A stretch of DNA of 64,000 bases from the human T2T-CHM13v2.0 reference genome, Homo sapiens: positions 11,712,001-11,776,000 of the forward strand of contig CP086569.2 in the NCBI GenBank assembly GCA_009914755.4. Reading direction: 5' to 3'. The notes beneath the pieces are model-generated. The model searched no databases, was not told the DNA's origin, and saw only the letters and a program-made list of their open reading frames with translations. Made by a program: the position numbers and the translations under genes. Shown in pieces: positions 5,810-52,000 of this stretch (position 1 is the first letter of the stretch; every line of letters starts with the position of its first letter).

Positions 5810-5865
5810 GGAATGGAATGGAATGGAATGGAATGGAATGGAATGGAATGGAATGGAATGGAATG
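5810..5865 (+). repeat. Pure (GGAAT)n run, ~11 units; one of the longest uninterrupted pentamer runs in the window
   Basis: Direct read: GGAATGGAATGG continues without a substitution from ~5810 to ~5865. Confidence 0.85.
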
Positions 5866-29300: not shown

Positions 29301-32300
29301 TGGATTCAAATGCAGTAGACTGGAGTGGAATGGACTCAAAAGGAATGTAAACGAATGGAATGGAACTGAATGGAATGGAATGGAATGAAACAGAATGGAA
29401 AAGAATAGAATGGAATGGAATCGTATGGAACGGAATGGAATGGAATGTTATCAAATGGAATAGAATCGAATGGAATGGCATCAAAAGGAATGAAAGGGAA
29501 TAGAATGGAAACAAATGGAATAGAATCGAATGGAATGACAGAGAATGGAATGGCATGAAATAGTATGGAAAGGAATGCACTCAGAAGTAAAGGACTCAAA
29601 TGGAATTCACTTAAATAGAACGGCATCAAAAGAAATGGACTCTAGTGGAATTCACGCGAATAGAATCAAATAGAATGGAGTGCAATAGTGTGGAAAGGAA
29701 TCGAATGGAATGGAATCGAATGGAATGGAGCTTAATGGACTGGACTGCAGGAGAATTGACTCGAATGTAATGGATTGCAAAGAAATAGTTTGGAATAGAA
29801 TGAAATCCAATGGAATGCAATCGAATGGAATGGAAAGGAATGCATTGGAATAGAATAGAATGGAATGCAATGGAATGAAAGGTAGTGGAATCGAGTGGAA
29901 TGGAATCAAATGGAATGGAATCGAATGGAATGTACTGGAATGGAATCGATTCGAGTGGAATCTACTGGAACAAAATGGAATCAAATGGATTGGAATCAAG
30001 TGGAACAGAATGGAAAGGATTGGAAAGGACTTGAATGGATTGGGGTAGAAAGAAATTGAATCTAATGGGGTGGAATAGAAAAAATAGAAAGAAAAAGAAT
30101 TTAATGGAGTGTGATGGAAACATATGGAATGGAATTGAAAGGAATGTAATGGACTAGAATGGAATGGACTGGAGTGGAATGGACTCGAATGGAATGGAAA
30201 TGAATGGAATGGAATCAATGCAATGGAAAGGGGAAGAATAAAACGGAATCGGATGGAATGAAATGTAATGTAATAGAGTCGAATGGAATAGAATAGAATG
30301 GAATGGAATCGATTGGAATGGAATGCAGTGGAATGGAATGGAATGGAATGGAATGGAATGGAATGGAATGGACTCGAATGGATGAGAATGGAATGGAATG
30401 AAATGGAATGGAAGGGACACAAATGGACCCGAACGGAATGGGCTCTACTAGAATGGAATCGAAAGGAATGGTCTCGAATGGAATTTCTTCAAATAAAATG
30501 GAATGGAATGGAATTCAAAGTATGCAACGGAATCGAATGGAATGGAATCGAATGGAATGCACAAGAATGGAATGGAATGGAATAGAACGTACACAAATAT
30601 AATGGATAGTAATCTAACTGTTTTTAATGGCATGGAATCGAATGGAATGTCGTCAAATATAATGCAATGGAATGCAATGGACTGTAATAGAATGGAATGC
30701 AAAGGAATTGACACAGTGGAATCGAGTGGAATGGAATCAAATGGAATGTAATCGATTTTAAAGGAATCGAAAGGAATGGAATCGAATGGAATGGAATTGA
30801 ATGTATGCCAAAGGAATAGAATGTTATGGAGTGTAATGGAAGTATAATGAATGTAATGTAATGGAATGGAATGGAATCGAATGGAATTGACTGGATTTGA
30901 ATGGACTCGAATGGAATGGAGTGGATTGGAATGAAATGGAATGGAATGGAATGGAATGCAATGGAATGGAATTGGATGGAACGGAATGGAATGGAATGTA
31001 GTCGAATGGCATAGAATTGAATTAAATGGCATCGAATGGATTGGAATTTAATGTAGTGGAAGGGATGTGAATGGAAAGGAATTGAGTGGAAAAGAATGAA
31101 ATGGAATGTCATGGAATGGAATGGAATGGAACGGAATGGAATGGAATGGAATGGAATGGAATAAACCCAAATGTAATGGACTCAAATGGAACGGAATCAT
31201 ATAGGATGCATTAGAAAGGTATGGCCTCGAATGGAATTTATTCGAATAGAATGGAATCAAAAGTAATGCAATAGTATGGAATGCAATCGAATGGAATGCA
31301 ATGAAATGGAATGGAACGGAATGGAATGGACTGGAATACAACAGACTGGAATATAATGGATTGCAATGTAATTGCTTTCAATAGAATGGAACGTAATCAA
31401 ATTGAGTGGAATGGAATGCAATGAAATGGACACGAATGGAATGGACACGAATGGAATGGAATCGAATGGAATGGAATTGAATGGAATCGAAAGGAATAAA
31501 ATGGAAGGGAGTGTAATGGAAATATATCAAATGGAATGGAATGGAATGGAATGGTATTGACTCGAATGGAATGGACTGGAATAAAATGGACTCGAATGAC
31601 ATAGAATCAAATGAAATGGCTTCGACTGGAATGGAAGGGAATGAAATGGAATGGAATGGACCCAAATATAATGGAGTAGAATGGAATGGACTCAAATTAA
31701 ATTGACTCTAAAGGAATGGTATCAAATGGAATTTATTCGAATAGAATGGAATCGAATGGAATGCAAAAGAATGGAATGGCATCGAATGGAATGGAATCCA
31801 ATAGAGTGGACAAGAATGGAAAGGACTGGAATAGAATGGACTCAAATGTCGAAAGTATTGGAATGAAACGTATAGGAATGGAACAGAATGGGCTCGAATG
31901 GAATGGAGTCGAATGGAATGGAATCGAAAGGAATAGAAACAAATGGAATGGAATTGAATGGAATCAAAATGAATAGAATGGAATAGAGTTTAATAAAGAT
32001 ATTGAATGGAATGGAATGGAATGGAAAGGACTGGAATGGAATGGACTTGAATACAATGGACTGTAGTGGAATGAGCTCGAATGGAATGCAAAAGAATTGA
32101 TTGGAATGGAACGAAATGGAATGGAAAGGAATAGAATGGAATGGAATCGGAAGGAATGGATTGGAATTGAATGGATTCGAATGGAATAGAATCAATTGTA
32201 ATGGCATTGAATGGAATGGAATGGAATGTACTCGAAAGGAATAGATTCGAATGGAATAGAACCCAATGGAATGGCATCGAATGGAAAGGAATGGAATGGA

Positions 32301-35300
32301 ATGGAAGCGAATGGACCCAAATGTAATGGACCCGAATGGAATGGACTCAAATAGAATGAACTCAAAATGAATGTTCTCGAATGGATTTTGTTCGAAGAGA
32401 ATGAAATAAAATGGAATGCAATAGTATGGAATGGAATCGAATGGCTTGGAATCAAAAGGAATATTTTGGATGGGAAAGGACTGGAATAGAACAGACTCAA
32501 ATTTAATGGATTGCAATGTAATTGATTCTAATGGAATGGAATCAAATGGAATGTAATCAAATGGAATGGAATGGAATGAAATGGAATAGAATAGAATGGA
32601 ATGTTACCAAATGGAAGGGAATGGAATGCCATGAGATTTAAAACAATGGAATATAATAGAATGGAACAGCGGGAAATCGAGTGGAATGGAATTGAATGGA
32701 ATGAAATGGAATCGAGTGGCCTACAATGGAATAGAACAGAATGCAATGGAGTGTAACAAAATGGAATGGAATGGATTGGAATCAAACGGAACAGAATGGA
32801 ATGGAATGGACTTGAATGGAATGGAACCGATTGGAATGGAAATGAATGCAATCGTAAGGAAGTGAATGGAATGGAGTGTAATGCAATGATATCGAATGGA
32901 ATGGAATGGAACGGAATCAAATGGAATGGAATGGAATGGAATGAACTCGAATGGAATGGAATGAAATGGAATGGACTCGAGTGGAATAGTCAGGAGTTGG
33001 ATGGAATCGAATGGAATGGAAACAAATAGAATGGAATGAAATGGGGTGTCCAAGAATGGAACAGATTAGCATGGAAAGGCATCGAATGGAATGGAATGGA
33101 CTGGAAACGACTGGAGCGAAAATTAAGTGAATCGAATGAAACTGACTAAATTAGAGTGGACTCGAAAGGAACGGTCTCGAATGGAATTTATTCGAATAGA
33201 TTGGAACCGAATGGAATGCAGTAGTATGGAATGGAATCGAATGGAAGGGAATTGAATGGAATGCACTGGAATGGAATGGACTGGAATTAAATGGACTAGA
33301 TTGTAATTTATTGCAATATAATTGATACGATTTCAATGGAATCAAATGGAATGTTATCAAATGGAATAGAGTTGAATGCATTGGAATGGAATAGAAGGGA
33401 ATCCATTCGAATGCAATGGAGTGGAATAGAGTAGAATGGAATCGAATGGAATGGAATCAAATGGAATGGAATGGACTCGAAAAGAATGGACAAGAAAAAA
33501 TGGAATCGAACATATTGGAATTGAAGGAATGGAAAGGAATGGAATGGAATGGACTCAAATGGAGTGGAGTTGAATGGAATGGAACCGAATGGAATGGAAT
33601 CGCATGGAATGGAATTGAATGGAATCAAAAAGAATAGAATGGAATGGAGTGTTATGGAAAGATACTGAATGGAATGGAATGGACTCGAATGGAATGGACA
33701 AGACAGGAATGGACTTGAATAATATGAACTGCAGTGAAATGGACTTGAATGGAATGGAAATGAATGGAATGGAATGAAAAGGAATAGAAATGCATAGAAT
33801 ACAATGGAATCGGATGGAATGGAAGGGAATGGAATGGAGTGGAATGGAATGGAATCAAATGGAATGTACTCGAGTGCAATAGAATGGAATGGAATGGATT
33901 TGAATGAAATGGGAATGAATGGAATGGTTTTGAATGGACCCAAATGTAACGGACTCTAATGGTATGGACTCAAATAGAATGCACTCGAAAGGAAGTGTCT
34001 CGAATGGAGTTGATTCCATTAGAATGGAATTAAATGGAATGCATTAGTATGGAATGGAATCAAATGGAATGGAATCGAATGGAGTGGAAAGGAATGGACT
34101 GGACTGGAAAAGAACGGAATAGAATGTAACGAATAGCAATGTAGTTAATTTGAAGGGAATGGAATCAAATGGAATAGAATCAAATGCAATGCAATGTAAT
34201 GCAATGAATGGGATAGAATGGGTTGCAATGGAATGGAACGGAGTGCAATCGAGTGGAATGGAATGGAATGGAAAGGAATGGAGTAGAAAGGATTGGACTG
34301 GAAGTAAATGGCATTAAACGAATTGTAATCGAATATTATGGAATGGAATGGAATGGAAAGGACTGAAACAAAATGGAACAGAACGGATTGGAATAGAACA
34401 GAACTGAATGGAATGGAATGGAATGGACTCGAATGGAATGGACTGGAATGGAATGGAATGGAACAAAATGGAATCAAATAGAATGGAAATGAGTGGAACG
34501 GAATGGAATGGACTCGAAAGGAATGGAGTCGAAAGGAATGGAATGGAATGGAATGTCATGGAATGGAATCGAAAGGAATAAAATGGAACAGAGTGTAGTG
34601 GAAAGATATCGAATGGAATGGAATGGAATCGAATGGAATGGACTGGAATGGAATGGATTCGAATGGAATGAAATGGAGTGGAATGGTCTCCAATGTAATG
34701 GAAATGAACGGAATGGATTGGAATGGATTCGAAAGAAATGGACTCGAATGCACTGGACTGGAATGGAATGCACTGGAACAAAATGGAATCAAATAGAATA
34801 GAAGTGAGTGGAACGGAATGGAATGGAATCGAATAGAATGGAGTCGAATGGAATGGAATGGAATGGAATGGAATGGAATCAAAAGGAATAAAATGGAACA
34901 GAGTGTAGTGGAAAGATATCGCATGGATTGGAATGGAATTGAATTGAATGGAATGGACTGGAATGAAATGGAATGAAATAGAATAGAACAAAATGAAGTG
35001 GTCTCGAATGGAATGGACTCAAATAGAATGGATTTGAAAGAAATGAATCGAATGGAATTTATTAGAATAGAATGGAAACAAGTGGAATGCAATAGTATGG
35101 AATGGAAACGAATGGAATGGAATCGAAGGTTACGGACCGGAAAGGAATGGACTGGAATAGAAAGGACACTAATATAATGGATTAAAATGTAATTGATTTG
35201 AAAGTAGTGGAATCGAATGCGATGTAATCAAATGGAATGCAATGCAATGCAATGGAATGGAACGAAGTGGAATCGAGAGAATGGAATCGTATGAAATGGA

Positions 35301-38300
35301 ATCGAATGAAATGGACTCGAATGAAATGGACTGAAAAAGATGGAATCAAAGAGACTGGAATAAAAAGGAACGGAATTGAATGTAATGGAATGGAAAGGAA
35401 TCAAAAGGAATGGAGACCAACGGAATTGAATCGAGTGGAATGGAATGGAAAGGAATAGAATGGAATTGAATCAGATGGAATGGAATGGAATGGAATACAA
35501 TGGAATGGAGTCGAATGTAATGGACTGGGACAAAATGGAATAGGACGGATTGTAATCAAATGGAAAGGAATAGAATGGACTGGATAGGAATGGATTCAAT
35601 TGGAATGGACTGGAATGGAATGGACTCGTATGGAAAGGACTAGAATTGAATGGAATAGAATGGAATGGAAATGAATGGAATGGTAAGGAAAGGAATGCAG
35701 TGGAATGGAATGGAATGGAATAAAAGGGAATGGGATCATATGGAAAGGAATGTAATGTAATAGCCTCTAATGGAATAGAATGGAAAGGAATAATATTGAA
35801 AGGAATGGAATAGATTGGAATGGCATGGAATGGAATGGACTCGAATGGAATGGACTCAAATGCAATAGCATCAAATGCAATGGCATTGAATGGAATGGAA
35901 TGGAATGGACTCACATGGAATCGAGTCAAATTAAATAGAATCTAATTGAATGGAATTGAATGGAATCGTAAGAATCAAATGGACTGCAGTGTGATGTAAA
36001 GATACCGAATACAATGGAATGGACTCGATTGCAATTTACTGGAATGGAATGGACTAGAATGGACTGGACTGGAGTGGAATGGACTCGAATGGAATGGAAA
36101 CTAATGGAATGGAATGGATCGGGATGGAATAAAATAGAATGTAATGGGATGGAGTGGAATGGAATGGAGTGGAAAGGATTCGAATGGAATAGAATAGAAT
36201 GGAATGGCAATGAATCAAATGGAATGGCATGCAATGGAATGGACTGTAACGGAATGTACTCGAATTGAATAGCATTGAATGTAATGGCATCAAATAGAAT
36301 GGAAAGGAATGGAATGGAATGGAATGTATTGAAATTTACTTTATTTGAATGCAGTGGAATCAAATAGAATGGACTCGAAAGAATGGACTCGGATGGGAAA
36401 TATTTGAATAGAAAGGAATCAAAAGGATTGCAGTACTGTGCAATTGAATCGAATGGAATTGAATCGAATAGAATGGTCCAGAATGGAATAGATTGGAATA
36501 TTTCATGAAATGCAATATAATTGATATGAATGGAATGGAATCGAATGCAATGTAATCAAACGGAATGGAGAGGAGTGCAATGGAATGGAAGAGAATGGAA
36601 TGCAATGGAAGGGAATGGAGTGGAATCGAGTAGAATGGAATAGAATGGAATGGACTGGAATGGAATGGACTCGAATGTAATTGACTGGAACAAAATGCTA
36701 TCAAACGGATTGGAATCAAATGGAATAGAATGGAATGGAATGGAGTAGAACGAAATGGCATCGAATGGAATGGAAACGGATGGAATGGAATTGAATGGAG
36801 TTGAAAGGATTAGAATGGAATGGAGTGAAATGGAAAGATATCGAATGGCATGGAATGCAACTAAATGGACACAAATTGAATGGAAAATAATGGAATAGAC
36901 TCTAATGGAATGCACGGGAGTGGAATGGAGTCGAATGGAATGGAAAAGAATGGAATGGAATGGAATGGAATGGAATGGAATGGAATAAAATATAATTGAA
37001 TGGAACACAATGGAAAGTAATAGAATGAAATGGAAGTGGATGGTATGCAATAGAACGGAGTGGAGACGAACGGAATAGAATTGAATGTAATGGCGTTGAA
37101 TGGAAGAGAATGGACTCAAATGGAATGGACTTGAATGGAATAGAAAGAGATGGAATGGCATGGAATGGCATGGAATGGAATGGACACAAATGTAAAGGAA
37201 TCAAACAGAATGGAGTTGAAAGGAATGGTCTCGAAAGGCAATTGTTCGTATAGAATTGAATCGACTGGAATACACTTTTATGATATGTAATAGAATAGAA
37301 AGGAATCGAATGAAATGGACAGGAACGGAATATACTGGAATAGAAAGGACTCTATTGTAATGAGCTACAAAGAAATAGATTCGAATGGAATGGAATCGAA
37401 TGTAATGTACTGAAATTGAATGGAATGGAATGCAATGGAATGGAATAAAATGGAATGCAATGAAATGGAATGGATTGCAATCGAGTGGAATTGAATCGAA
37501 GGGAATGGATTTCAATGGAATGGAGTAGATTGGAATATACTGGAATGATACAGACTCGAATGGAATGGAATGGAAAAATGGAATCGAACGAGTAGGAATC
37601 AAACGGAATGGAAAGGAATGCAACGGAATGGAATGGCTTCAAAAGGAATTGAGTCGAATGGAATGGAATCAAAGTGAAAGGAATCGAAAGGAATGCAAGG
37701 GAATAGCATAAAAGGAATTTAATGGAAAGATATTGAATGGAACAGAATGGAATGGAATCGAATGGAATGGACTTCAATGAAATGGTCTTGAATGGAAAGG
37801 AGTGAACTGGAATGGACTCGAAAGAAATGGAAACGGATGGAATGGAATGGAAGGGAAAGGAATAGAATGGAATAGAAACGGCTGGAACAGAATGAAATGG
37901 AATGGAGTCGAATGGATTATAATCAAATGGAATGGCATCGAATGAAATAGAAAGGAAAGACTCGAATGGAATGGAAACGAATGGAATGGAATAGAATGGA
38001 ATGGAACCAGATGGAACAGAATGGAATGGAATGGACTCGAATGCAATAGAATCAAATGGAATGGCATTGAATGGAAGGGAATGGAATGGACTCGAATGGA
38101 ATGGACTCAAATGGAATAGAATAGAATTTAATGGAATAGAATGGATTGGAAGGAATGGAATGTACTCGAATGGAATGGAGACGAATGGAATATAATCGAA
38201 TGGAATGGACTGGAGTTGAAAGGACACGAATGGAATGGAAATTAAAGGAAAGGAATGGAATGGAAAGGAATGGAAAGGAAAGGAATAGAATGCATGTAAT

Positions 38301-38465
38301 TGGATGTAACGGAAATGAATAGAAAGGAGTGAAATGGAATAGAATAAAATGGAATGGCACCGAAGAGAAGGGTATCGAATATAATGGAATGTAATTTAAT
38401 GGAATGCACCCGAATATAATCGACTCCAATGGAATAGAATAGAATGGAATATCATGGAATGAAAT

Positions 38466-38510
38466 GGAATGGAATGGAATGGAATGGAATGGAATGGAAT
38501 GGAATGGAAT
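38466..38510 (+). repeat. Pure (GGAAT)n run, ~9 units. Similar short pure runs occur at ~15727-15771, 18383-18432, 23171-23217, 27847-27885, 30330-30370, 40583-40630, 59140-59188 and 59703-59743.
   Basis: Direct read. All pure runs are at most ~11 units, so the array is heavily diverged from the ancestral pentamer. Confidence 0.8.
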
Positions 38511-41399
38511 ACAATGGAATGGAGTGGAATGGAATGGAATGGAGTGTAATGGAATGGAATGGAATAGACTCAAATGTAATGGACTCGAATCCAAGGCAGT
38601 CAAATAGAACGGACTCCAAAGGAATGGCCTCGAATGGAGTTAATTTGAATAGAGAGGAATGGAATGGAATACGATAGTATGGAAAATAATCGAATGTAAA
38701 GGTATCAAATGGAAAGGAAGGCAATGGAATGGAATGGTCTGAAATAGAATGGACTTGAATGTACTTGATAGCGGTGTAGTTGAAACGAATGGAATGGATC
38801 GAAAAAATATAATCAAATGGAATGGAATAGAGTGCAATAGAATGGAATAGAAAGGAGTGCAATTGAATAGAATGGAGTGGAATGGAGTGAAAAGGAATCA
38901 AATGGAATGGAATCGAATGGTAGGGTCTGGAAAGCAATGTATCCAAATGGAATGGAAGGGAAAAAAATGCAATTGAACGGCTTAGAATCGATCAGAATGG
39001 AATGGATTGGAATGGAGTCGAATGGAATGGAGTCGAATAGAATGGAATGGCATGGAACGGTATAGAATGGAATGGAATGGAATGGAATGGAATAGACCCA
39101 AATGTAATGGACTCGAATCAAAGGGACTCAAATAGAATGGACTCGAAAGGAATGGCCTCGAATGGAGTTGATTTGATTAGAATTGAAAGGAATGGAATAC
39201 AATAGTATGGAAAGGAATCGAATGGACCGGCATCAAATGGAAAGGAAGGCAATGGAATGGACTGGAATAGAACGGACTCGAATGTACTGGATAGCGGTGT
39301 ATTTGAAACGAATGGAATGGAATCGAAACAATGTAATCAAAGGGAATGGAATGGACTGCAATGGAATGGAACAGAAAGGAATGCAATGGAATGGAATGGA
39401 GTGGAATTGAGTGAAAGGGAATCGAATGGAATGGAATCGAATGGGATGATCTGGAATGGAATGTATCTGAATGGAATGGAAGGGAAAAAAATGCAATCGA
39501 ACGGCTTAGAACCGTACAGAATGGAATCGATTGGAATGGAGTCGAATGGAACGGAATCCAAAGGAATGCACTCTAATGGAATGAGAATGAATGGAGTCAA
39601 AAGGAATAGAATGGAATCGAGTGTATTGGAAAGATATCGAATGGATTGGAAAGGAATTGATTCGAATGGAATGCACTCGAATGCAATCCAGTGGAGTGGA
39701 ATGGACGAGAATGGAAAGGAAATAAACGGAATAGGAAGGAAAGGAATGGAATGGAATGGAACTCTATGGAAACGAATAGAATTAAATGGAATCGGTTGGA
39801 ATGGAATGGAAGGGAATGGAGTCTAATAGAATAGAATCGAATGGAATGGCATTGAATCGAATGGAATTGAAGGGAGTTGACTCGAATGGGAAGGACCCCA
39901 ATGGAATTGAATTGAATGGAAAGGCATCGAATTAAATCGAAAAGAATGGAATGGAGTGAACTGAAATGGAATGGATTCGAATGGAATAGACTAGAATGGT
40001 ATGGCATCGAAGGGAAAGGAATGGAATGGAATGGAATGGTATGGACCGAAATGTAATGGACTGTACTCAAATATAATGGATTTGAAAGGAATGGTCTCAA
40101 AACAATTCATTCGATTAGAATGGAATCGAATTTAATGAAATAGTATTTAATAGATTCTAAGGGAATAGATTCCAATGGAAGGCACCAGAATGGAATGGAA
40201 ATTAATAGAACAGACAGAAATGTAATGGATTTCAATGTAATTACTATGAATGGAATGGAATCGGTTTTAATGCAATCAAATGGAATGGAAACTTATGCAA
40301 TGGAATGGAATAGAATGTAATGCAATGAAATGGAACGGAGTGGAATCGAGTGTAATGGATTCCAATGAAATGGCAACCAATGGAATCGAATCGAATGTAA
40401 TGGACACGAATTGAATGGAATGGAAAAATATGCAATCGAACGAATTGGAATCGAACGAAATGGAACGGAATGGAACGGAAGGTACTCGAATGGAATGGAA
40501 TCTAGTTTAATAGAATCGAATGGAATGGCATCGATTGGAAAGGAATGGAATGGAATGGACTCGAATGTAATGGACACGAATGGAATGGAATGGAATGGAA
40601 TGGAATGGAATGGAATGGAATGGAATGGAATGCACCCAAATGTAATGAACTCTAATGAAATGGACTTTAATAGAATGGATTAGAAAACAATGGGCTCGAA
40701 TGGAATTTAATCAAGTTGAATGGAATGGAATGGAATGGAATGCAAAACTATGGAATAGCATCAAATGGAATGGAATAGAATGGAGTGGAATGGAATGAAA
40801 TACACAGGTATAGAACAGACTCGAATATAATGGATTGCAATGTAAGTGATTCAAATGGAATGGAATAAAATGGAATATAATCAAATGGAATGGAATGGAG
40901 TGCATTGGAATGGAATAAAATGGAATGCAAACAATGGAAGAGAACTCAGTTGAATCTAGAGGAATGGAATCGAATGCAATGGAAAAGAATGGAATGGACA
41001 CGAATGGAATGGATTGGAAACAAATGGAATGGAAAGGATTTTAATCAAACAGAACAAAATAGAATGCAATGGACTCGAATGAAACGGAGTCGAAGAGAAT
41101 AGAATCAAATGGAAAGGAATCGAATGCAATCGAACCGAATGGAATGTGAATGAAGTTAATTGAAAGAAATAGAATGGAATGAAGTGTAATGGAAAGATAT
41201 CGAATTGAATGGAATTGAATGGAATGGACACAAACGGAAAGGACTGGAATGGAATGAACTTGAAAGGAATAGAATGGAGCGGAATGGACTCGAGTGAATT
41301 GGAATCGAATGGTATAGAATAGAATGGAATGCAAAGAAAAGGAATAGAAGGGAATGGAATCGGATATAACGGGACAGATTGGAATGGGGTAGAATTGAA

Positions 41400-43458
41400 T
41401 AGAATCGAAAGGAATGTCATCGAATGTAATGGAATGGAATGGACTCGAATGGAATGGAGTGACATGTAATGGAATCTAAAGGAATGGAATCGAATAAAAT
41501 GGAATTGAATGGAATAGAAAGGAATAGAATGGAATGGAGTTTAATGGAAAGATATTAAAAGTAATGGAATGGAATTGAGTGGACACGAATGGAATGGACT
41601 GGAATGGAAAGGACTCGAATGAAATGGAGCGCATTAGAATGGACTCTAATGGAATGGATTGGAGTTGAATGGTCTCGAATGGATTGGAAACGAATGGAAA
41701 GGAAAGGAATAGAATGGAATGTAATCAAATGGAACGAAAAGGAATGGAATGGATTAGACTGGAACAGAATTGAATGGAGTGGAATTGAATGGAATGGAAT
41801 GCAATCGAACGGAATGGACACGAATGGAATAGAATGAAATGAAATGGCATAGAATGGAATGGAATGGAATGGAATGGAATGGAATGGAATGGAATGGCAT
41901 GGAATGGAATGCAATGGAATGAAATGGATTGGAATGGGACGGACCCAAAAGTAATGGACTCAAATAAAAGGGACTCAAATAGAATGAATTGGAAAGAAAA
42001 GGTCTCGAATGTAATTTATTCGAATAGAAAGATATTGAATGGAATGCAAAAGTATGCAATGGTATCGAATAGAATGGAATAGAATGGAATGGAATGGAAC
42101 GGAATGCAGTGCATTTGAACAGACACAAATGCAATAAATTGCAATATAATTGATTCAAATGGAATGGAATCAAATAGAATGCAAACAAATGGAATGGAAG
42201 GCAATGCAATGGAAAGGAATAGAATGAAATGGAATAAATAGAATGGAATCGAATGGAAAGGACGCGAATATAATGGACTGTTAAGGAAAGGTCTCGAATT
42301 GAATTTATTCCAATCGAATGGAATGCAATGCTATTTAATCGAATCGAACGGAATGGAATAGAATGGAATGGACAGGAATGTAATGAACTGGAAGTGAATG
42401 GACAAGAACGTAATATATTGCAGTGTAATTTATTCAAATGGAATGGAATGCAATCGAATGGAATGGACTCGATTGGAATGGACTGGAGTGGAATGGACTC
42501 AAATGGAATGGAAACGAATGTAATGGAATGGAACGGAAAGCAAAGGAATCTACTGGAATAGAATCGAACGGAACAGAAAGGAATGGAATGGAATGGAGCG
42601 GAATGGACTCGAATGGAATGTATTCGAATGTAATGGACCTGAAGGGAATGGAATCCAATGGAATGGAATTGAATGGAATCAAAAGGAATAGAAACGAATA
42701 GAGTGTAATTGAATGATATCGAAAGGAAGAGAATGGAATGAACTCGAATGGAATGCACTGGAATGGAATGGACTTGATCAGAACGGACTGGAGAGGAATG
42801 TACACAAATGGAATAGAAACGAGTGGAATGGAATGAAATGGAATAGAATGAAATGGAATTGAAAGGAACTGAATCAAATGGAATCAAAAGGAATGGAATG
42901 GATTGGAATAGAATGGATTCAAATAAAATAGAATCGATTGGAATGGTATTCAATGGAAGGGACTTGAATGGAATGGAAAGCAATGGAAGATATTGGAATC
43001 GAATGGCATCGAATGAAATGGAATGGAACGGAATGGAACGGAACCGAATGGAATGGAATGGACTCAAATGTAATGGACTCGTATGTAATCGAATGAAATA
43101 TAATAGACTCGAAAGGAATGGACTCGAGCGGAATTTATTTGAATAGAATGGAATCAATTGGAATACAATAGTATTGAAAGGAATAGAATCGAATGGAATC
43201 GAATGGAATGTAATAAAATGGAATGGCAAGGAATTCAATATAATGGAATAGACTGGAATGCACTGGAAAGGAGCAGGGTGGAATCGAGTGTAATGGAATC
43301 AAAGGGAATGAAATCGAATTGAATGGACTTGAATGGAATTGACTCGAAAGGAATTGACTCGAAAGGAATGGACTGGAACAAAAAGGAATCAAATGGACAG
43401 GAATGGAATGGACTCGAATGGAATGGAGTGAAATGCAAACGCATCGAATGGAATGGAT
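41400..43458. repeat. HOR unit Z (partial): the distal part of module X (~41.4-42.33 kb) plus the ~1.13 kb unit tail
   Basis: ORFs 41555-41914, 41589-41837 and 41754-43238 match ORFs 46878-47333, 47116-47349 and 47361-48789 of unit A (offset ~5.51-5.55 kb). 43135-43392 matches 48686-49033. Similarity to module X fades upstream of ~41.39-41.44 kb. Confidence 0.7.
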
Positions 43459-46400
43459 TCAAATGGAATGCAATTGAATGGAATAGAAAGGAAGAGAATG
43501 GAATTGAGAGTAATGGAAAGATATCGATTGGAATGAAATGGAATGGAAAGGAATTGAATGGAAAGGAATGGACTCGAAAGAAATGGATTGCAATGGAATG
43601 GTCTCCAACGGAGTGGACTGGAGGGGAATGGAATCGAATGGAATGAAAAGAATGGAACGGAATGGAACGGAAAGGAATAGAATGTTATGGAATCCGATTG
43701 GACAGAATGGAATGGAATGGAGTTTCATGAAATGGAGTCGAATAGAGTGGCATCAAAAGGAATGGAATGGAATGGAGTGGACTCAAAAGGAATGGACTCG
43801 AAAGGAATGGAGTCGAACCAAATTGAATGAAATGGATTGGAGTCGAACAGAATGGAATGGAATGGAATGAACTCGACTGGAGTAGAGAGGAATGTAAAGG
43901 AATAGAATGGAATGTAATCAAATGGATTGCAAGTGAATGGAATCAAAAATAATAGAAAGGAATGGAGTGTAAAGGGATGATATTGAATATAATGGAATAG
44001 AATGGAATTTAATGGAATGGAGACGAAGGAATGGACAGGAATGTAATGGACGCCAATGGAATGGAATGGATCAAAATGGATTTGAACAGATTGGAATCGA
44101 ACGGAATGGAATGTAATGGAATGGAATGGACTCGAATGGAGAAGAGACAAATGGAATGGAAACGAATTCAATGGAATTGAAAAGAATAGGATGGAATGGC
44201 GTGTAATGGTAAGATACTAAATGGAATGGAATTGAACGGAATGTAATGGAATGGAACCAAATGTAATGCACTCGAATGGAATATACTGAAATAGAATGGA
44301 ATCGAAAGGAAAGGTCTCAAATGGAATTTATTCAATACAATGGATTCGAATGGAAAGCTATAGAATTGAATGGAATCGAATGTAATGGAATCAAATAGAA
44401 TGAACCAGAATGGAATGGACTGCCATAGAACGGACTGCAGTGTAATGGATTGAATTCTAATTCATTCAAATGGAATGGAATTGAATGGAATGGAATCCAA
44501 TGGAATGGATAGGATTGTACTGCAATGGAATAGAATGGAATGCAACGGAGTGGAATGGAGTTGAATGAAGTGGAATGGAATCGATTGGAATGGAATCAAA
44601 TGGAATGGACGGGAATGGAATGGACTGGAAGAGAACAGACTCGAATATAATGGATTGCAAAGTAATTGATTCAAACGGAATGGAATCGAATGGAATGTAA
44701 TAAAATTGAAGGGAATTGAGTTCAATGCAATGGAATAGAATGGAATGCAAAGGAAAGGAAAGGTACGGAGTGAAACCGAGTGTAATGGAATCGAAGGGAA
44801 TGACATCGAATGGAATGGACTCAAAAGAAATGGACGAGGGACAAAACGGAATCGAACTGATTGGAATCGAACGGAACGGAATGGAATGGAATGGTCTCCA
44901 TTGGATCGCAGTAGAACGGATTGGAATGGAATGGAATGAAATGGAATGGAAAGGAATAGAATGGAATGGAATGGAATGGAAGGAAATGGAAAGATATCGA
45001 ACGGATTGGAAAGGAATGGAATGGACCCTAATGGAATGGAATGGAATTCAACAGAAACGAATGGAATGGACTGGAGTGTAATGGAGTCGAATGTAATTGA
45101 CTGGAGTGGAATGGACTCGAATAGAATGGACTGGAATGGATTGAACTCGAATGGAGTGGAAAGGAATAAAATGGATTCCACCAGATTGGAATGGAACAGA
45201 ATGTAATGTAATGGAATGGAATACAATGGAATAGCACGAATGGAATGGAGTCGAACGCAATGGAACAGAAAGGAAAGGAATTGAATGGAATTGAAAGTAA
45301 CAAAATAAAATGGAGTGCAAAGGAAAGATATCGAACGGAATAGATCGAAAAGAAATAGAATGGAATGGACAGGAATGGAATGGAATAGAATGGAATAGAC
45401 TGGCCTGCAATGAAAACGAATGGAATGGAAACGAATGGAATGGAATGGAAAGGAATGGAGTAGAATAAATACTATGGAATGGAATGGAGGCGAAAGGAAA
45501 AGAATGGATTGGAATGTCACCGAATGGAAAGATACGGAATGGAAAGGAATGGATACGAATGGAATGGAATAGAAAGGAACGGAAAGGTAAAGAATGGAAT
45601 GGAATCGGATAGAATGGAATGCAATGTAATGGAGTCGAAGGGAAAGTAAACGAGTAGAATGATATCGAATGGAATGGAATTTAATGGAATGGAATGGAAT
45701 GGAATGGACTCGAATGGAATGTACTCAAATGGATTAGAATAGAATGGAATGGAACTAAACGTAATGAACTCGAATGGAATGGACACAAATAGAATGGAAG
45801 AGAAAGGAATGGTATTGAATGGAATTTATTCGAATAGAGTGGAATTCAATGGAATGCAAGAGTGTGGCATGGAATCAAATGGAATGGAATCGAATGGAAT
45901 GGACCTGAGTGGAATGGACTCACATAGAACAGCCTCGAATGTAATGGATTACAATATATTAGATTCGAAAGGACTGAAATCGAATGGAATGTAATCAAGT
46001 AGAACGGAATTGAATGCATGGAATGGCATAGAAAGTAATGCAATGGAATGGAATAGACTGGAATCGAATGGAATCGGATGGAATGTAATGAAATATAATG
46101 GAAGGAATGCCATGGAATGGAATGGAATGGAATGCAATGGGACGGTGTATAATGGAGTGCAATGGATTTCAGTGGAATGTAGTCAAAAGGAAAGAAATAG
46201 AATGGAATTCAATATAATGGAATGGCATCCAAAGGCAAGGAATGGAGCGGACTCCAATGGAAACGACATGAAAGGAATATAATATAACGGAATGGCATTG
46301 AAGGAAATGGAATGCAATGGAGTTAAAAGGTAAAATATCGAAAGGAAAAGAATTGAATGGACTCGAATGGAATATAATGGAATGGAATGGACTCGAATGG

Positions 46401-49029
46401 AATGTACTAGAGTTGAATGGAAACGAATGGAATGGAAAACAATGGAAAGGAAAGGAAAGGAATTGAAAGGAAAGGAATAGAATGGAATGGAATCGGATGG
46501 AACGGAATTGAATGGAATGGAAACTAAAGGAATAGAATAGAAAGGAATGGCATTGAATGGAATGGAATGGAATGGAATCAGATGGAATAGAAAGTAAAGG
46601 AATAGAATCGAATGGAATGGCATCGAAAGGATTGGAATGGAATGTAATGGAATGGAATAGAAAGGAATGGAATGGACTCGAATGGAATGTAGTCAAATAG
46701 AATACAATAGAATGGAATAGAAGTAAATATAATGGACTCGAATGGAATGCATTGGAATAAATTGGAATTGAGTGTATTGGATTCGAATGGAAAGGAATGG
46801 AATGGAATAGAATGGAATGGATACGAATGGAATGGAATCGAATGGAATGGAACGAATTGGAATGTAATTGAATGGAGTCAAAAACAGTAGAAAGAAATGA
46901 AGTTTAATCGAATGATATCGAATGGAATTGAGTGGAATGTACGCGAATGGAATGGACTCGAATGGAATGCAGTGAAATGTAACGGAATCGAAAGGAATGG
47001 AATCCAATGAAATGGAATTGAATGGAATAGAAAGGAATACAATGGAATGGAGTTTAATGGAAAGATATTAAAATAATGGAATGGAATTGAGTGGACACGA
47101 AAGGAATGCACTGGAATGGAAAGGACTCGAATGAAATGGAGCGCATTAGAATGGACTCGAATGGAATGGATTGGAGTGGAATGGTCTCGAATGGATTGGA
47201 AACGAATGGAATGGAAAGGTATAGAATGGAATGTAATCAAATGGAACGAAATGGAATGGAATGGATTCGACTGGAACAGAATTGAATGTAGTGGAATTGA
47301 ATGGAATGGAATGCAATCAAATGGAATGGACACGAATCGAATAGAATGAAATGAAATAGCCTAGAATGGAATGAAATGGAATGGAATGGAATGGAACGGA
47401 ATGGAATGGAATGGAATGGCATAGAATGGAATGGCATGGCATGTAATGGAATGGAATGGAATGAAATGGATTGGAAGGGGATGGGCCCAAAGAAATAGAC
47501 TCAAATAAAAGGGACTCAAATAGAATGAAGTGGAAAGAAACGGTCTCCAATGTAATTTATTCGAATAGAATGATATTGAATGGAATGCAATAGTATGGAA
47601 TGCTATCGAATAGTATGGAATAGAATGGAATGGAATGGAACGGAATGTAGTGCAATTGAACAGACTCAAATGCAATAAATTGCAATATAATTGATTCAAA
47701 TGGAATGGAATCGAATAGAATGTAAACAAATGGAATGGAAGGCAATGCAATGGAAAGGAATCGAATGAAATGGAATAAATGGAATGGAATGGAATGGAAA
47801 GGACGCGAATATATTGGACTGTTAAGGAAAGGTGTCGAATCGAATTTATTCCAATAGAATGGAATCGAATGGATTGCAATACTATTGAATCGAATCGAAT
47901 GGAATGGAATTGAATGGAATGGACAGGAATGGAATGAACTGGAAATGACTGGACAAGAACGTAATATATTGCAATGTAATTTATTCAAATGGAATGGAAT
48001 GCAATCGAATGGAATTGACTCGATTGGAATGGACTGGAGTGGAATGGATTTAAATGGAATGGAAAGGAATGTAATGTAAAGGAAGTGAAAGCAAAGGAAT
48101 CTACTGGAATAGAATCGAACGGAACAGAAAGGAATGGAAAGGAATGGAGTGGAATGGACTCGAATGGAATGTATTCGAATGTAATGGACCTGAAAGGAAT
48201 GGAATCCAATGGAATGGAATTGAATGGAATCAAAAGGAATAGAAAGGAATAGAGTGTAATTGAACGATATCGAATGGAAGGGAATGGAATGAACTCGAAT
48301 GGAATGCACTGGAATGGAATGGACTCGATCAGAACGGACTGTAGAGGAATGTACACAAATGGAATGGAAACGAATGGAATGCAATGAAATGGAATGGAAT
48401 GAAATGGAATTGAAAGGAACGGAACCAAATGGAATGGAATGGAATGGAATGGATTGGAATAGAATGGATTCAAATAAAATAGAATCAATGGGAATGGTAT
48501 TGAATGGAAGGGACTTGAATGGAATGGAAAGCAATGGAAGATATTGGAATCGAATGGCATCGAATGAAATGGAGTGGAACGGAATGGAACGGAACCGAAT
48601 GGAGTGGAATGGACTCAAATGTAATGGACTCGAATGGAATCGACTGAAATATAATAGTCTCGAAAGGAATGGCCTCGAGCGGAATTTATTTGAATAGAAT
48701 GGAATCAAATGGAATACAATAGTATTGAATGGAATCGAATGGAATGGAATCGAATGGAATGTAATCAAATGGAATGGAACGGAATTCAATATAATGGAGT
48801 AGAATGGAATGCATTGGAAAGGAGCAGAGTGGAATCGAGTGGAATGGAATCAAAGGGAACGAAATCGAATTGAATGGAGTTGTATGGAATTGACTCGAAA
48901 GGAATTGACGCGAAAGGAATTGAATCGAAAGGAATGGACTGGAACAAAAAGGAATCAAATGGACAGGAATGGGATGGAATGGACACGAATGGAATGGAGT
49001 CAAATGCAAACGTATCAAATGGAAAGGAT
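43459..49029. repeat. HOR unit A, 5571 bp, contains module X. The unit phase is arbitrary and was set at the low-coordinate end of the MKLHSIPFC ORF.
   Basis: Landmark spacing of 5571 bp to unit B1. ORFs 43459-43728, 43538-43870, 43685-43921 and 44462-45520 have counterparts at 49030-49299, 49109-49327, 49256-49492 and 50032-51111. Confidence 0.85.
45690..47900. repeat. Module X copy in unit A (~2.2 kb present/absent block of the HOR)
   Basis: Unit A minus unit B is 5571-3361 = 2210 bp. Left junction: A at 45661 (GATATCGAATGGAATGGAATTTAATGGAATGGAATGGAATGGAATGGACTCG) and B1 at 51251 (GATATCGAATGGAATGGAATTGAATGGAATGGAATGGAATGGAATGAACTGGAAGTGAATGGACAAGAACG) share sequence and then diverge. Right junction: A at 47891 (CGAATCGAATGGAATGGAATTGAATGGAATGGACAGGAATGGAATGAACTGGAAATGACTGGACAAGAACG) rejoins the B path. 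Confidence 0.8.
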
Positions 49030-52000
49030 TCAAATGGAATGCAATTGAATGGAATAGAAAGGAAGAGAATGGAATTGAGAGTAATGGAAAGATATCGATT
49101 GGAATGAAATGGAATGGAAAGGAATTGAATGGAAAGGAATGGAGTGGAAAGAAATGGATTGGAATGGAATGGTCTCCAATGGAATGGACTGGAGTGGAAT
49201 GGAATCGAATGGAATGAAAAGAATGGACCGGAATGGTACGGAAAGGAATAGAATGTTATGGAATCCGATTGGACAGAATGGAATGGAATGGAGTTTCATG
49301 AAATGGAGTCGAATAGAGTGGCATTAAAAGGAATGGAATGGAATGGAGAGGACTCAAAAGGAATGGACTCGAAAGGAATGGAGTCGAACTAAATTGAATC
49401 AAATGGATTGGAGTCGAACAGAATGGAATGGAATGGAATGAACTCGACTGGAGTAGAGAGGAATGTAAAGGAATAGAATGGAATGTAATCAAATGGATTG
49501 CAAGTGAATGGAATCAAAAATAATAGAAAGGAATGAAGTGTAACGGGATGATATTGACTGTAATGGAATGGAATGGAATTTAATGGAATGGAGACGAAGG
49601 AATGGACAGGAATGTAATGGACTCCAATGGAATGGAATGGATCAAAGTGGATTTGAACAGATTGGAATCGAACGGAATGGAATGCAATGGAATGGAATGG
49701 ACTCGAATGGAGAAGAGAGAAAAGGAATGGAAACGAATTCAATGGAATTGAAAAGAATAGGATGGAATGGCGTGTAATGGTAAGATACTAAATGGAATGG
49801 AATTGAATGGAATGGAATGGACCCAAATGTAATGCACTCGAAAGGAATATACTCAAATAGAATGGAATCGAAAGGAAAGGTCTCAAATGGAATTTATTCA
49901 ATACAATGGAATCGAATGGAATGCAATAGAATGGAATGGAATCGAATGTAATGGAATGAAATAGAATGGACCAGAATGGAATGGACTGCCATAGAACGGA
50001 CTGCAGTGTAATGGATTGAATTCTAATTCATTCAAATGGAATGGAATTGAATGGAATGGAATCCATTGGAATGGATAGGATTGTACTGGAATGGAATAGC
50101 ATGGAATGCAACGGAGTGGAATGGAGTTGAATGAAGTGGAATGGAATCGATTGGAATGGAATCAAATGGAATGGACGGGAATGGAATGGACTGGAAGAGA
50201 ACAGACTCAAATATAATGGATTGCAAAGTAATTGATTCAAATGGAATGGAATCGAATGGAATGTAATAAAATTGAAGGGATTTGAGTTCAATACAATGGA
50301 ATAAAATGGAATGCAAAGGAAAGGAAAGGTACGGAGTGAAATCGAGTGTAATGGAATCGAATGGAATGAAATCGAATGGAATGGACTCAAAAGAAATGGA
50401 CGAGGGACAAAACGGAATCGAACTGATTGGAATCGAACGGAACGGAATGGAATGGAATGGTCTCCATTGGATCTGAGTAGAACGGACTGGAATGGAATGG
50501 AATGAAATGGAATGGAAAGGAATAGAATGGAATGGAATGGAATGGAATGGAATGGAAGGTAATGGAAAGATATCGAACGGATTGGAAAGGAATGGAATGG
50601 ACCCTAATGGAATGGAATGGAATTCAACAGAAACGAATGGAATGGACTGGAGTGAAATGGAGTCGAATGTAATTGACTGGAGTGGAATGGACTCGAAAGG
50701 AATGGACTCGAATAGAATGGACTGGAATGGATTGTACTCGAATGGAGTTGAAAGGAATAAAATGGATTCCACCAGATTGGAATGGAACAGAATGTAATGG
50801 AATGGAATGGAATGCAATGGAATAGCTCCAATGGAATGGAGTCGAATGCAATGGAACAGAAAGGAAAGGAATTGAATGGAATTGAAAGTAATAGAACAAA
50901 ATGGAGTGCAAAGGAAAGATATTGAATGGAATGGATCGAAAAGAAATCGAATGGAATGGTCAGGAATGGAATGGAATAGAATGGAATAGACTGGCGTGCA
51001 ATGAAAACGAATGGAATGGAAACGAATGGAATGCAATGGAAAGGAATGGAGTAGAATAAATACTATGGAATGGAATGGAGGCGAAAGGAAAAGAATGGAT
51101 TGGAATGTCACCGAATGGAAAGATATGCAATGGAAAGGAATGGATACGAATGTAATGGAATAGAAAGGAATGGAAAGGTAAAGAATGGAATGGAATCGGA
51201 TAGAATGGAATGCAATGTAATGGAGTCGAATGGAAAATAATCGTGTAGAATGATATCGAATGGAATGGAATTGAATGGAATGGAATGGAATGGAATGAAC
51301 TGGAAGTGAATGGACAAGAACGTATTATATTTCAATGTAATTTATTCAAATGGAATGGAATGCAATCGAATGGAATGGACTCTATTGGAATGGACTGGAG
51401 TGGAATGGACTCAAATGGAATGGAATGGAATGGAATGGAATGGAATGGAAAGCAAAGGAATCTACTGGAATAGAATCGAACGGAACAGAAAGGAATGGAA
51501 TGGAATGGAGTGGAATGGACTCAAATGGAATGTATTCGAATGTAGTGGACCTGAAAGGAATGGAATCCAATGGAATGGAATTGAATGGAATCAAAAGGAA
51601 TAGAAAGGAATAGAGTGTAATTGAATGATATCGAATGGAAGGGAATAGAATGAACTCGAATGGAATGCACTGGAATGGAATGGACTCGATCAGAACGGAC
51701 TGGAGAGGAATGTACACAAATGGAATGGAAATGAATGGAATGGAATGAAATGGAATTCAATGAAATGGAATTGAAAGGAACGAAATCAAATGGAATGGAA
51801 TGGAATGGAATGGATTGCAATAGAATGGATTCAAATAAAATAGAATCGATGGGAATGGTATTGAATGAAAGGGATTTGAATGGAATGGAAAGCAATGGAA
51901 GATATTGGAATCGAATGGCATCGAATGAAATGGAACGGAACGGAATGGAACGGAACCGAATGGAATGGAATGGACTCAAATGTAATGGACTCCAATGGAA

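What the first reader, a model, noticed from the sequence alone, without database searches (positions are those of the whole stretch)
41300..41600. Transition from an old diverged HSat3 domain to a recently homogenised HOR domain, same polarity, no junction insert
Upstream of ~41.4 kb none of the HOR landmarks occur. Downstream, the sequence can be aligned unit-to-unit with >95% and locally >99% identity. Homology of unit Z to module X of units A and C can be traced back to ~41.39-41.44 kb and then stops. The junction is plain satellite: same GGAAT strand, with no A-rich tract, TE or inversion. This fits an HOR that arose in situ by amplification of a segment of the older array, not by transposition of a foreign block.
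Basis: seen in the sequence. Interest (0 to 1): 0.55.

Follow-up and report, generated by a model that had tools for sequence, protein, structure and literature searches.

The report
Edge of a Y-chromosome HSat3 repeat array

Summary
The jump in self-similarity is real. Inside the window every long 92-99% self-alignment starts at 41,432. Upstream, the best non-self identity is 72-80% background, with a few 82-88% patches. Polarity is uniform and there is no insert.

But 41,432 is not the edge of the repeat family. Five independent human-metagenome contigs match window 40,593-41,907 at ~96%, straight across it. Position 41,432-41,458 is one copy of a ~27-bp direct repeat. Between two such copies, 1.98 kb is missing from the short 5.56-kb units relative to a 7.57-kb long unit. 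Only the window's first unit keeps part of that segment (40,632-41,431). The real family edge is a perfect (GGAAT)10 tract at 40,582-40,631.

The repeat carries the HSat3A3 marker 24-mer (chrY pericentromere). It is a nested tandem repeat (NTR), not a HOR.

The window copies are not freshly homogenised. Each is closer to the external consensus (96.7-97.6%) than to its neighbours, and the outermost copy is the most diverged. Only the Q3/Q4 pair is young (99.5%).

In-situ origin is neither supported nor refuted. This is a known kind of feature and of low interest.

The parts
1..40581 (+). Older diverged (GGAAT)n-type HSat3 with no long-range periodicity, only isolated decayed local duplications
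   Evidence: Best non-self identity is 72-80%, with a few patches at 82-88%. There is no array-wide period; the 7.5-kb offset peak comes from one duplication. Identity to the external repeat consensus is 74-82% (tiles from 36,001). No exact hit to any Table-1 subfamily marker 24-mer.
40582..40631 (+). Perfect (GGAAT)10 tract: true left edge of the HSat3A3-type repeat family in this window
   Evidence: Homology to five external long-unit contigs starts here. It is unambiguous from 40,633 (ACCCAAATG...). BLAST places the start at 40,593.
40632..41431 (+). Segment X2: part of the long (7.57-kb) repeat unit, kept only by the window's first unit and so looking 'unique' inside the window
   Evidence: 92-98% identical to L064, L068, L071, L074 and L077, continuous with what follows. 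It is absent from window units 2 and 3.
41432..41458 (+).
   Evidence: Base-level alignments. Two copies lie 1,978 bp apart in the circular long unit L064, bracketing X1+X2.
41459..42342 (+). R-right, unit 1
   Evidence: Together with the 27-bp repeat (41,432-42,342), 94.2-94.7% identical to the corresponding parts of R1 and R2.
42343..45706 (+). Q1: outermost 3.36-kb Q module and the most diverged
   Evidence: 95.3-95.9% to the other Q copies and 96.7% to the external consensus. It has 72 private derived changes. Exact HSat3A3 marker at 43,951.
45707..46944 (+). R-left
46945..46971 (+). Deletion joint of a short unit: a single copy of the direct repeat, with R-left joined directly to R-right
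   Evidence: alignments; sequence print.
46972..47893 (+). R-right, unit 2
47894..58018 (+). Q2-Q3-Q4: local triplication of the 3,361-bp Q module, with joints near 51,255 and 54,620
   Evidence: A 6.77-kb alignment at offset 3,361 (98.0%). Q3 vs Q4 is 99.46%. The joints lie in about 17 bp of shared sequence, ATCGAATGGAATGGAAT.
58019..59295 (+). R-left
   Evidence: R1 vs R2 is 95.99%.
59296..59322 (+). Second short-unit deletion joint (single direct-repeat copy)
59323..60233 (+). R-right, unit 3
60234..63635 (+). Q5: the Q copy closest to the external consensus
   Evidence: 97.6% to L072 and L064, with 30 private changes. Exact HSat3A3 marker at 61,853.
63636..64000 (+). R-left of the next unit, cut by the window end, so the array continues beyond the window
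   Evidence: 99.0-99.5% to 58,019-58,420.

Best explanation
The window spans one edge of a nested-tandem-repeat (NTR) array of the HSat3A3 subfamily. The literature places that subfamily in the human Yq pericentromere.

Layout:
- To the left, up to about 40.58 kb, lies older HSat3 with no long-range periodicity.
- At a perfect (GGAAT)10 tract (40,582-40,631) the first repeat unit begins.
- Genome-wide the family has at least three unit lengths. The long unit is 7.57 kb (X2, R-right, Q, R-left, X1). The short unit is 5.56 kb and lacks X1+X2. A third unit of 8.93 kb is the long unit plus a 1.36-kb internal duplication in Q.

In the window the first unit is long-type at its left end and keeps X2. 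Units 2 and 3 are short-type. Within-window homology therefore stops at 41,432, the direct repeat.

Mechanism (inferred): unequal sister-chromatid exchange or replication slippage at short, near-perfect pentamer repeats. These events create and remove multi-kb blocks: the indel, the Q triplication, and probably the array edge itself.

Status of the window copies: they take little part in homogenisation and decay independently, the outermost fastest.

Shown: the anatomy, the breakpoints, the unit variants, the marker match and the divergence pattern. Inferred: long unit ancestral (by parsimony), the exchange mechanism, and chrY placement (marker plus literature).
For: - Within-window lattice and breakpoint.
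- A Q-specific 31-mer recovers 20 contigs, several labelled human-skin metagenome, with 4.5-22x coverage in their names.
- Strict BLAST: L064, L068, L071, L074 and L077 each match window 40,593-41,907 (L077: 40,593-41,897) at 96.1-96.3% in one HSP, flanked by R-left and R-right/Q segments.
- Sliding identity between window and L074 is 38-77% left of about 40,650 and 92-99% from there through 41,432. The contigs agree with each other at 99-100% over most of the region.
- Window tiles against all contigs: 74-82% up to 40,500, 88% for the 40,501 tile, mostly 94-98% from 40,751, and no dip at 41,432.
- Circularly collapsed contigs give periods of 5,564, 7,571, 8,929 and 8,939 bp.
- Direct-repeat geometry at base level. 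The copies in L064 are 1,978 bp apart.
- Q|Q joints lie in about 17 bp of shared sequence.
- The HSat3A3 marker 24-mer is exact in 17 of 20 contigs (22 hits) and at window 43,951 and 61,853. Other subfamily markers score 0, apart from two HSat3B5 hits in L069.
- Each window Q copy is 96.7-97.6% identical to the external consensus but 95.3-97.2% to other window copies. The two external units are 99.24% identical. Private changes: Q1 72, Q2 38, Q3/4 37, Q5 30.
Against: - The external contigs are short-read metagenome assemblies of a collapsed repeat. They are consensus-like and could contain graph artefacts. Five assemblies do agree, and two are circular.
- No independent copy of the 40.6-kb edge was found, so that edge rests on this window alone.
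- Subfamily typing rests on one marker 24-mer, because the full list is not held.
- Long-ancestral versus short-ancestral is decided by parsimony only.
- The 27-mer is common, with 15 exact copies in the window, so only its position is informative, not its presence.
- The array interior is outside the window, so 'periphery of the main array' is inferred from the divergence pattern.
Confidence: 0.8

Rival explanations
1. One reading: 41.4 kb is the boundary between an old HSat3 domain and a recently homogenised HOR that arose in situ by amplifying a segment of the old array.
For: Within the window the lattice does stop at 41,432. Polarity is the same and there is no insert. The k-mer dialect is the same on both sides.
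Against: - External copies of the repeat run continuously across 41,432 and include 40,593-41,431.
- The switch lies in a direct repeat that brackets a 1.98-kb indel.
- The copies are not homogenised with each other.
- The dialect test has no discriminating power (L082).
- The unit is slightly less related to the flank than flank pieces are to each other.
The 'in situ' component, moved to 40.6 kb, remains possible.
Confidence: 0.05
2. Flank capture: the short 5.56-kb unit is ancestral and 41,432 was the original array edge. The long unit arose later, when an unequal exchange at the edge pulled flanking sequence (X2) into the repeat and that variant spread.
For: X2 sits exactly where flank sequence would be in the window. 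Short units exist genome-wide (L072).
Against: - In long units X2 is preceded by X1 (1.13 kb). X1 has only 72-76% background similarity to anything in the window, including the sequence left of X2. A captured flank should be contiguous flank.
- The long unit carries two copies of the direct repeat and the short unit one. That is the signature of deletion between repeats.
Confidence: 0.07
3. The window's 23-kb block is not the periphery of the main array. It is a separate, older paralogous block, or an orthologous array in a close ape relative, that shares ancestry with the high-copy human HSat3A3 array represented by the metagenome contigs.
For: - Window copies are 2.4-3.3% from the external consensus, and none is above 97.6% over a full Q.
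- 14 derived states are shared by all five window copies.
- The source of the window is not given.
Against: - Many 250-bp tiles are 99-100% identical to the human contigs.
- The marker 24-mer is exact in two copies.
- Divergence falls steadily away from the edge (72, 38, 37, 30), as expected if the array interior lies to the right.
- The block runs off the window end.
Confidence: 0.07
4. Assembly artefact: a mis-join in satellite sequence creates an apparent abrupt boundary.
For: Satellite arrays are hard to assemble. The 40.6-kb edge lies in a perfect repeat tract and has no independent confirmation.
Against: Continuity across 41,432 is confirmed by five independent assemblies. Composition, polarity and pentamer phase are seamless. 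Hallast et al. describe two adjacent pentamer-satellite arrays on Yq.
Confidence: 0.01

Closest known systems
HSat3A3 subfamily of human satellite III (Altemose et al. 2014, PMC4022460), located in the chrY pericentromere
   Same: The NTR part carries the subfamily's most common specific 24-mer, exact in two window copies and in 17 of 20 related contigs. It is pentamer-derived and lacks the CAACCCGAGT decamer that occurs in the HSat3B1 marker.
   Different: Only one of the subfamily's markers could be tested. The upstream 40.6 kb carries no exact marker of any subfamily. No unit structure for HSat3A3 was found in the papers I searched, so the 5.56, 7.57 and 8.93-kb unit variants may be undescribed detail.
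Nested tandem repeats (NTRs) of HSat2/3, for example the ~3.6-kb DYZ1/HSat3A6 unit (Altemose et al. 2021, bioRxiv 10.1101/2021.07.12.452052; Rhie et al. 2023, bioRxiv 10.1101/2022.12.01.518724)
   Same: A multi-kb unit built from diverged (CATTC)n, tandemly repeated. Periodicity changes along the array. Peripheral copies are more diverged. Evolution by unequal exchange is the proposed mechanism.
   Different: The unit lengths and sequence differ from DYZ1: the HSat3A6 marker has no exact or 1-mismatch hit. Here several unit-length variants coexist and are related by direct-repeat-bounded indels.
Alpha-satellite HOR arrays with diverged flanks (layered-expansion model)
   Same: A homogeneous core elsewhere with more diverged copies toward the edge. 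There is an abrupt change in the self-identity heat map.
   Different: There is no discrete monomer, so this is not a HOR. There is no series of progressively older layers of the same unit beyond the edge: identity to the family falls from about 96% to background within about 50 bp. No kinetochore role is implied.
Yq pericentromeric layout of DYZ3, then an HSat3 array (372-488 kb), then the DYZ17 array (0.86-1.74 Mb) (Hallast et al. 2023, bioRxiv 10.1101/2022.12.01.518658)
   Same: Two adjacent pentamer-satellite arrays on Yq, one annotated only as generic HSat3 and one with its own consensus unit. The size of HSat3A3 in HuRef (836 kb) is close to the lower end of the DYZ17 range.
   Different: Equating HSat3A3 with DYZ17, and this window with that boundary, is my inference and was not tested. 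The hg19 clone order (3A4, 3A3, gap, 3A2) does not settle it.

Membership tests
Human satellite III (HSat3), broad sense | Derived from a (CATTC)n/(GGAAT)n pentamer array, diverged, on one strand | tested here: met
   51-71 GGAAT versus 0-2 ATTCC per kb across all 64 kb, and lag-5 identity of 0.63. In the 12 kb tested, TRF finds only periods that are multiples of 5, plus one short 25-bp repeat.
HSat3B group (classical satellite III with the decamer) | Interspersed CAACCCGA(A/G)T / A(T/C)TCGGGTTG decamer. The motif is from my own knowledge of classical satellite III; it also occurs in the HSat3B1 marker. | tested here: not met
   0 occurrences in 64 kb. The 3B1-3B5 markers have 0 exact hits.
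HSat2 | HSat2 subfamily-specific 24-mers (2A1, 2A2, 2B) and CATTCGATTCCATTCGATGAT-type units | tested here: not met
   0 hits even at 2 mismatches or fewer. HSat2-type motifs are absent.
HSat3A3 (Altemose 2014) | [quoted passage not shown] Only the most common one, CTTTACACTCCATTCCTTTCTATT, was available. | tested here: met
   For the NTR part: exact at 43,951 and 61,853, 2 mismatches in Q2-Q4, and 22 exact hits in 17 of 20 related contigs. For 1-40,581: not met, with 0 exact hits and one 1-mismatch hit at 22,988.
HSat3A3 (Altemose 2014) | Localisation to the Y chromosome | not testable with these tools
   Literature only: PMC4022460 Table 1 and Table S8 (clone RP11-295P22, Y:13.54-13.75 Mb hg19), and 10.1101/2021.07.12.452052. 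No human genome was available to map against.
Nested tandem repeat (NTR; Altemose 2021) | Multi-kb tandem unit made of diverged simple repeat, not of a discrete number of similar-length monomers | tested here: met
   Periods of 5,564, 7,571 and about 8,930 bp from circular contigs. Window offsets are 3,361 and about 5,540 bp. No intermediate period up to 500 bp.
Higher-order repeat (alpha-satellite sense) | Unit composed of a discrete number of monomers of similar length | tested here: not met
   TRF reports only 10, 15 and 30-bp (pentamer-multiple) periods at 62-66% matches, plus one short 25-bp repeat, and no monomer.
Recently homogenised array core | Neighbouring units more similar to each other than to the family consensus, typically 98% or more | tested here: not met
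   Window Q copies are 95.3-97.2% to each other and 96.7-97.6% to the external consensus. Only Q3/Q4 reach 99.46%.

The most novel reading that the evidence does not exclude
The (GGAAT)10 tract at 40.58-40.63 kb is the preserved birth scar of the Y-specific HSat3A3 array. On this reading the first unit (X2, R-right, Q1, R-left) is the progenitor segment of old HSat3, still in its ancestral context, and the whole ~1-Mb array was seeded from it in situ. The flat 1:2 transition:transversion spectrum with only weak CpG excess in the peripheral copies would then reflect a non-standard mutational process in this heterochromatin, such as micro-conversion between pentamer variants.
Probability: 0.2. 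Interest if true: 0.4.

Novelty: already known. Interest (0 to 1): 0.18.

Why it matters
It matters little beyond bookkeeping. Satellite arrays with multi-kb nested units, locally varying periodicity and more diverged edges are already documented for HSat2/3 and for the Y chromosome.

Three points are useful:
- A self-dot-plot of a single window can misplace an array boundary when the edge unit is a structural variant. Here the error was 840 bp, and copies from elsewhere corrected it.
- All structural events seen sit in 17-50 bp near-perfect pentamer repeats: a 1.98-kb indel, a 3.36-kb triplication and the array edge. That fits unequal exchange or slippage as the engine of NTR turnover.
- The HSat3A3 unit variants (5.56, 7.57 and 8.93 kb) could serve as markers for Y-haplotype structure, if they are not already catalogued.

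Tried and rejected
1. A probe for the junction flank (32-mer at 41,361-41,392) found nothing in metagenome contigs. It later turned out to differ from the family consensus at 2 nt, so that null result says nothing.
2. A (GGAAT)7 scan of IMG/VR gave 61 loci. All hold only short microsatellites (2-14 GGAAT per kb against about 60 here), so they are useless as HSat3 outgroups.
3. A generic HSat3 29-mer in prokaryotic genomes gave only two tiny human-contaminant contigs. L082 was still useful: it shows that unrelated HSat3 is 77-79% similar to the old array, the same as the old array is to itself. The 'same dialect' result therefore cannot support in-situ origin.
4. Searching for older paralogy between the repeat unit and the adjacent old array found none above background. 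The unit is, if anything, slightly less related.
5. A hidden periodicity in the old array was rejected. The 7.5-kb offset peak is one local duplication.
6. An exact ORF look-up and one protein homology search with the ORF spanning the 40.6-kb edge found no copy of that edge (best 57% identity).
7. The full subfamily 24-mer list (Dataset S2 of PMC4022460) is held only for 2A1 and 2A2, so the upstream side could not be typed.
8. A published DYZ17 unit length was not found in the papers I searched.
Full report
**What the window is.** All 64 kb are pentamer-derived satellite on one strand. GC skew is +0.55 to +0.63 in every 2-kb bin. There are 51-71 GGAAT versus 0-2 ATTCC per kb, and lag-5 self-identity is 0.63 with no non-satellite stretch anywhere. 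The classical CAACCCGA(A/G)T decamer and all HSat2 motifs are absent.

**Checking the observation.** A k-mer dot-plot and gapped self-BLAST show a strong lattice only in the right-hand third. Offsets are 3,361, about 5,540, 6,722, about 8,950, about 12,300 and about 17,870 bp. Every long alignment at 92-99% begins at or after 41,432. The leftmost are 41,432-41,921 against 46,945-47,433 (94.3%) and against 59,296-59,764 (92.4%).

In 500-bp tiles, best non-self identity is 72-80% for every tile up to 41,001, except a few old patches at 83-87%. It is 89% for the 41,501 tile and 91-100% from 42,001 on. A three-way alignment places the switch at about 41,420-41,432. Left of it, units 2 and 3 remain about 95% identical to each other, while unit 1 falls to pentamer-phase background. 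That includes same polarity, no A-rich tract, no TE and no inversion.

**Anatomy inside the window.**
- The repeat consists of a 3.36-kb module Q and a 2.2-kb module R.
- Q copies lie at 42,343-45,706, 47,894-51,254, 51,255-54,619, 54,620-58,018 and 60,234-63,635.
- R copies lie at 45,707-47,893 and 58,019-60,233. A further copy starts at 63,636, and only the right 0.9 kb of R is present at 41,432-42,342.
- The basic period is therefore about 5.55 kb, with a local triplication of Q in the middle unit.
- Q identities are 95.3-95.9% for Q1 against the rest, 96.6-97.2% among Q2, Q5 and Q3/4, and 99.46% for Q3 against Q4.

**Copies from elsewhere change the reading.** A 31-mer conserved in all five Q copies recovered 20 contigs from public metagenome assemblies. 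Several are labelled human-skin metagenome. They reach 9 kb, and their names give 4.5-22x coverage. So the sequence matches human DNA, and the unit has enough copies to assemble from host contamination.

With strict scoring, five contigs from different assemblies each match window 40,593-41,907 at 96.1-96.3% in a single alignment (L077 stops at 41,897). These are L064, L068, L071, L074 and L077, and the alignment runs straight across 41,432. In the contigs this piece sits between R-left and R-right/Q segments.

Sliding identity between the window and L074 is 38-77% left of about 40,650. It is 92-99% from there through 41,432, while the contigs agree with each other at 99-100% over most of the region. 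Tiling the window against all contigs shows the same pattern. Identity is 74-82% up to 40,500, 88% in the 40,501 tile and mostly 94-98% from 40,751. There is no dip at 41,432.

The family boundary in this window is therefore at about 40.6 kb, not 41.4 kb.

**What 41,432 is.** Four contigs are circularly collapsed tandem units, with end overlaps of 51-64 nt. They give periods of 5,564 bp (L072), 7,571 bp (L064) and 8,929 and 8,939 bp (L071, L077).

The long unit has an extra 1.98 kb between R-left and R-right. It consists of X1 (1.13 kb, with only 72-76% background similarity to anything in the window) followed by X2 (0.84 kb, equal to window 40,593-41,431).

Base-level alignments show that both ends of this extra segment carry the same ~27-bp repeat, GAATGGAATGGACT(C/G)GAATGGAATGGA. 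The short units, at window 46,945 and 59,296, keep one copy, with R-left-specific sequence on its left and R-right-specific sequence on its right. In the circular L064 unit the two copies are 1,978 bp apart. The motif is common, with 15 exact copies in the window, so only its position at the homology switch is informative.

The parsimonious reading is a deletion, or an unequal exchange, between direct repeats that converted long units to short ones. The window's first unit keeps X2, and units 2 and 3 lack it. That is why self-comparison stops at 41,432-41,458.

The Q|Q triplication joints likewise lie in about 17 bp of shared sequence, ATCGAATGGAATGGAAT. The true left edge is a perfect (GGAAT)10 tract at 40,582-40,631.

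- Only the HSat3A3 marker gives exact hits. They are at 43,951 (Q1) and 61,853 (Q5), with 2 mismatches at the same position in Q2-Q4.
- It is exact in 17 of 20 related contigs (22 hits). All other markers score zero, except two HSat3B5 hits in the probably chimeric L069.
- Altemose et al. describe HSat3A3 as Y-specific. Their Table S8 types hg19 clone RP11-295P22 (Y:13,543,063-13,748,578) as 3A3, next to a 3A2 clone at Y:13,798,578-13,958,100.
- Hallast et al. describe the Yq pericentromere as DYZ3, then an HSat3 array of 372-488 kb, then DYZ17 of 0.86-1.74 Mb.

That HSat3A3 is DYZ17, and that this window is one of its edges, is my inference and was not tested. The upstream 40.6 kb carries no exact marker and could not be typed, because the held copy of the full 24-mer list stops at 2A2.

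**HOR or NTR.** In the 12 kb tested, TRF finds only pentamer-multiple periods (10, 15 and 30 bp at 62-66% matches), plus one short 25-bp repeat. They run continuously from 40,248 to 52,000, with no discrete monomer. The published term for such units is nested tandem repeat. [quoted passage not shown]

**Homogenised or decaying.** I used the two circular external units as a reference; they are 99.24% identical to each other.
- Each window Q copy is closer to that consensus (96.7-97.6%) than to its window neighbours (95.3-97.2%).
- Derived changes are mostly private: Q1 72, Q2 38, Q3+Q4 shared 37, Q5 30. Only 14 are shared by all five copies.
- 160 changes move away from the canonical pentamer and 35 move toward it.

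This is star-like decay from a consensus-like ancestor, strongest at the outermost unit. It is not local homogenisation. The one young event is the Q3/Q4 duplication. [quoted passage not shown] It also fits the long-standing expectation, from my own knowledge, that unequal exchange homogenises array interiors more than edges.

**In situ or imported.** The unit's k-mer spectrum is indistinguishable from that of upstream chunks at k = 8-15, and pentamer degeneracy is equal. But an unrelated HSat3 contaminant contig (L082) is 77-79% similar to the old array, as similar as the old array is to itself. That test therefore cannot discriminate.

The unit has no older paralogue in the flank. In a matched design, its tiles score slightly lower against the adjacent 20 kb than old-array chunks do against their own left flanks (median 309 vs 334-381 bits, p about 0.001). 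The old array has isolated decayed duplications at 82-88% but no lattice. Similar local duplication evidently happened there earlier.

An abrupt edge in a pure pentamer tract fits three scenarios equally well: an original duplication boundary, a later truncation, or a recombinational juxtaposition. I leave in-situ origin as possible but unsupported.

**Limits.**
- The external contigs are collapsed short-read assemblies.
- The 40.6-kb edge has no independent copy.
- Subfamily typing rests on one marker.
- Chromosome placement comes from the literature.
- The array interior is outside the window.

**Verdict.** This is a real but ordinary feature of a known kind. The domain boundary is 840 bp further left. 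The 41.4-kb point is a direct-repeat-bounded indel breakpoint between unit variants. The copies here are the worn edge of the array, not a fresh core.

Noticed in passing
window 42,343-63,635 (Q copies) versus L064 and L072: The 251 substitutions separating window Q copies from the external consensus have transitions:transversions of 95:156, and 26:52 for isolated sites. That is the unbiased 1:2 ratio, not the ~2:1 of the human germline. CpG positions are 5.3% of sites but only 10.8% of events. C positions are the most mutable (0.178 per site) and A the least (0.039). This may point to micro-conversion between pentamer variants or another non-standard process.
   Followed up: partly
window 10,909-11,954 ~ 18,413-19,427; 14,477-15,392 ~ 19,402-20,290; 17,772-18,320 ~ 19,892-20,447; 22,366-22,785 ~ 22,876-23,285; 38,467-39,027 ~ 38,995-39,551; about 27,001-27,500 ~ 21,893-22,398: The 'old' array contains isolated decayed duplications at 82-88% identity, some tandem (periods of about 510-530 bp) and some 2-7.5 kb apart. 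One pair shows a 2.5-kb indel between copies. They are remnants of earlier local duplications of the same kind, and there is no array-wide period.
   Followed up: partly
L067, L071, L076, L077 (external contigs): A third unit variant of about 8.93 kb is the long unit plus a ~1.36-kb internal tandem duplication of Q positions about 399-1,803. It appears in four independent assemblies and is absent from all five Q copies in the window.
   Followed up: partly
L069 (OOJA01000648.1): This contig carries two exact HSat3B5 marker 24-mers plus a 0.7-kb piece 98% identical to Q. It is probably a chimeric metagenome assembly joining two HSat3 subfamilies.
   Followed up: no
L082 (WYCU01000052.1, 'Azonexaceae bacterium s22') and L083 (NZ_VKHS01001643.1, 'Streptomyces calidiresistens DSM 42108'): Short contigs in deposited bacterial genome assemblies consist of HSat3-type satellite and are presumably human contamination.
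   Followed up: no
L001-L061 (IMG/VR contigs, several labelled GVMAG, up to 330 kb): 61 'viral' contigs contain perfect (GGAAT)7 or longer microsatellites embedded in otherwise non-satellite sequence (2-14 GGAAT per kb). They are not related to HSat3 arrays.
   Followed up: no
window 41,856-41,895 and 59,703-59,742; also 59,140-59,189: Perfect (GGAAT)n runs inside the repeat units vary in length between copies and split otherwise continuous alignments. They account for most of the length differences between units, for example 5,513 vs 5,542 vs 5,614-bp offsets.
   Followed up: no
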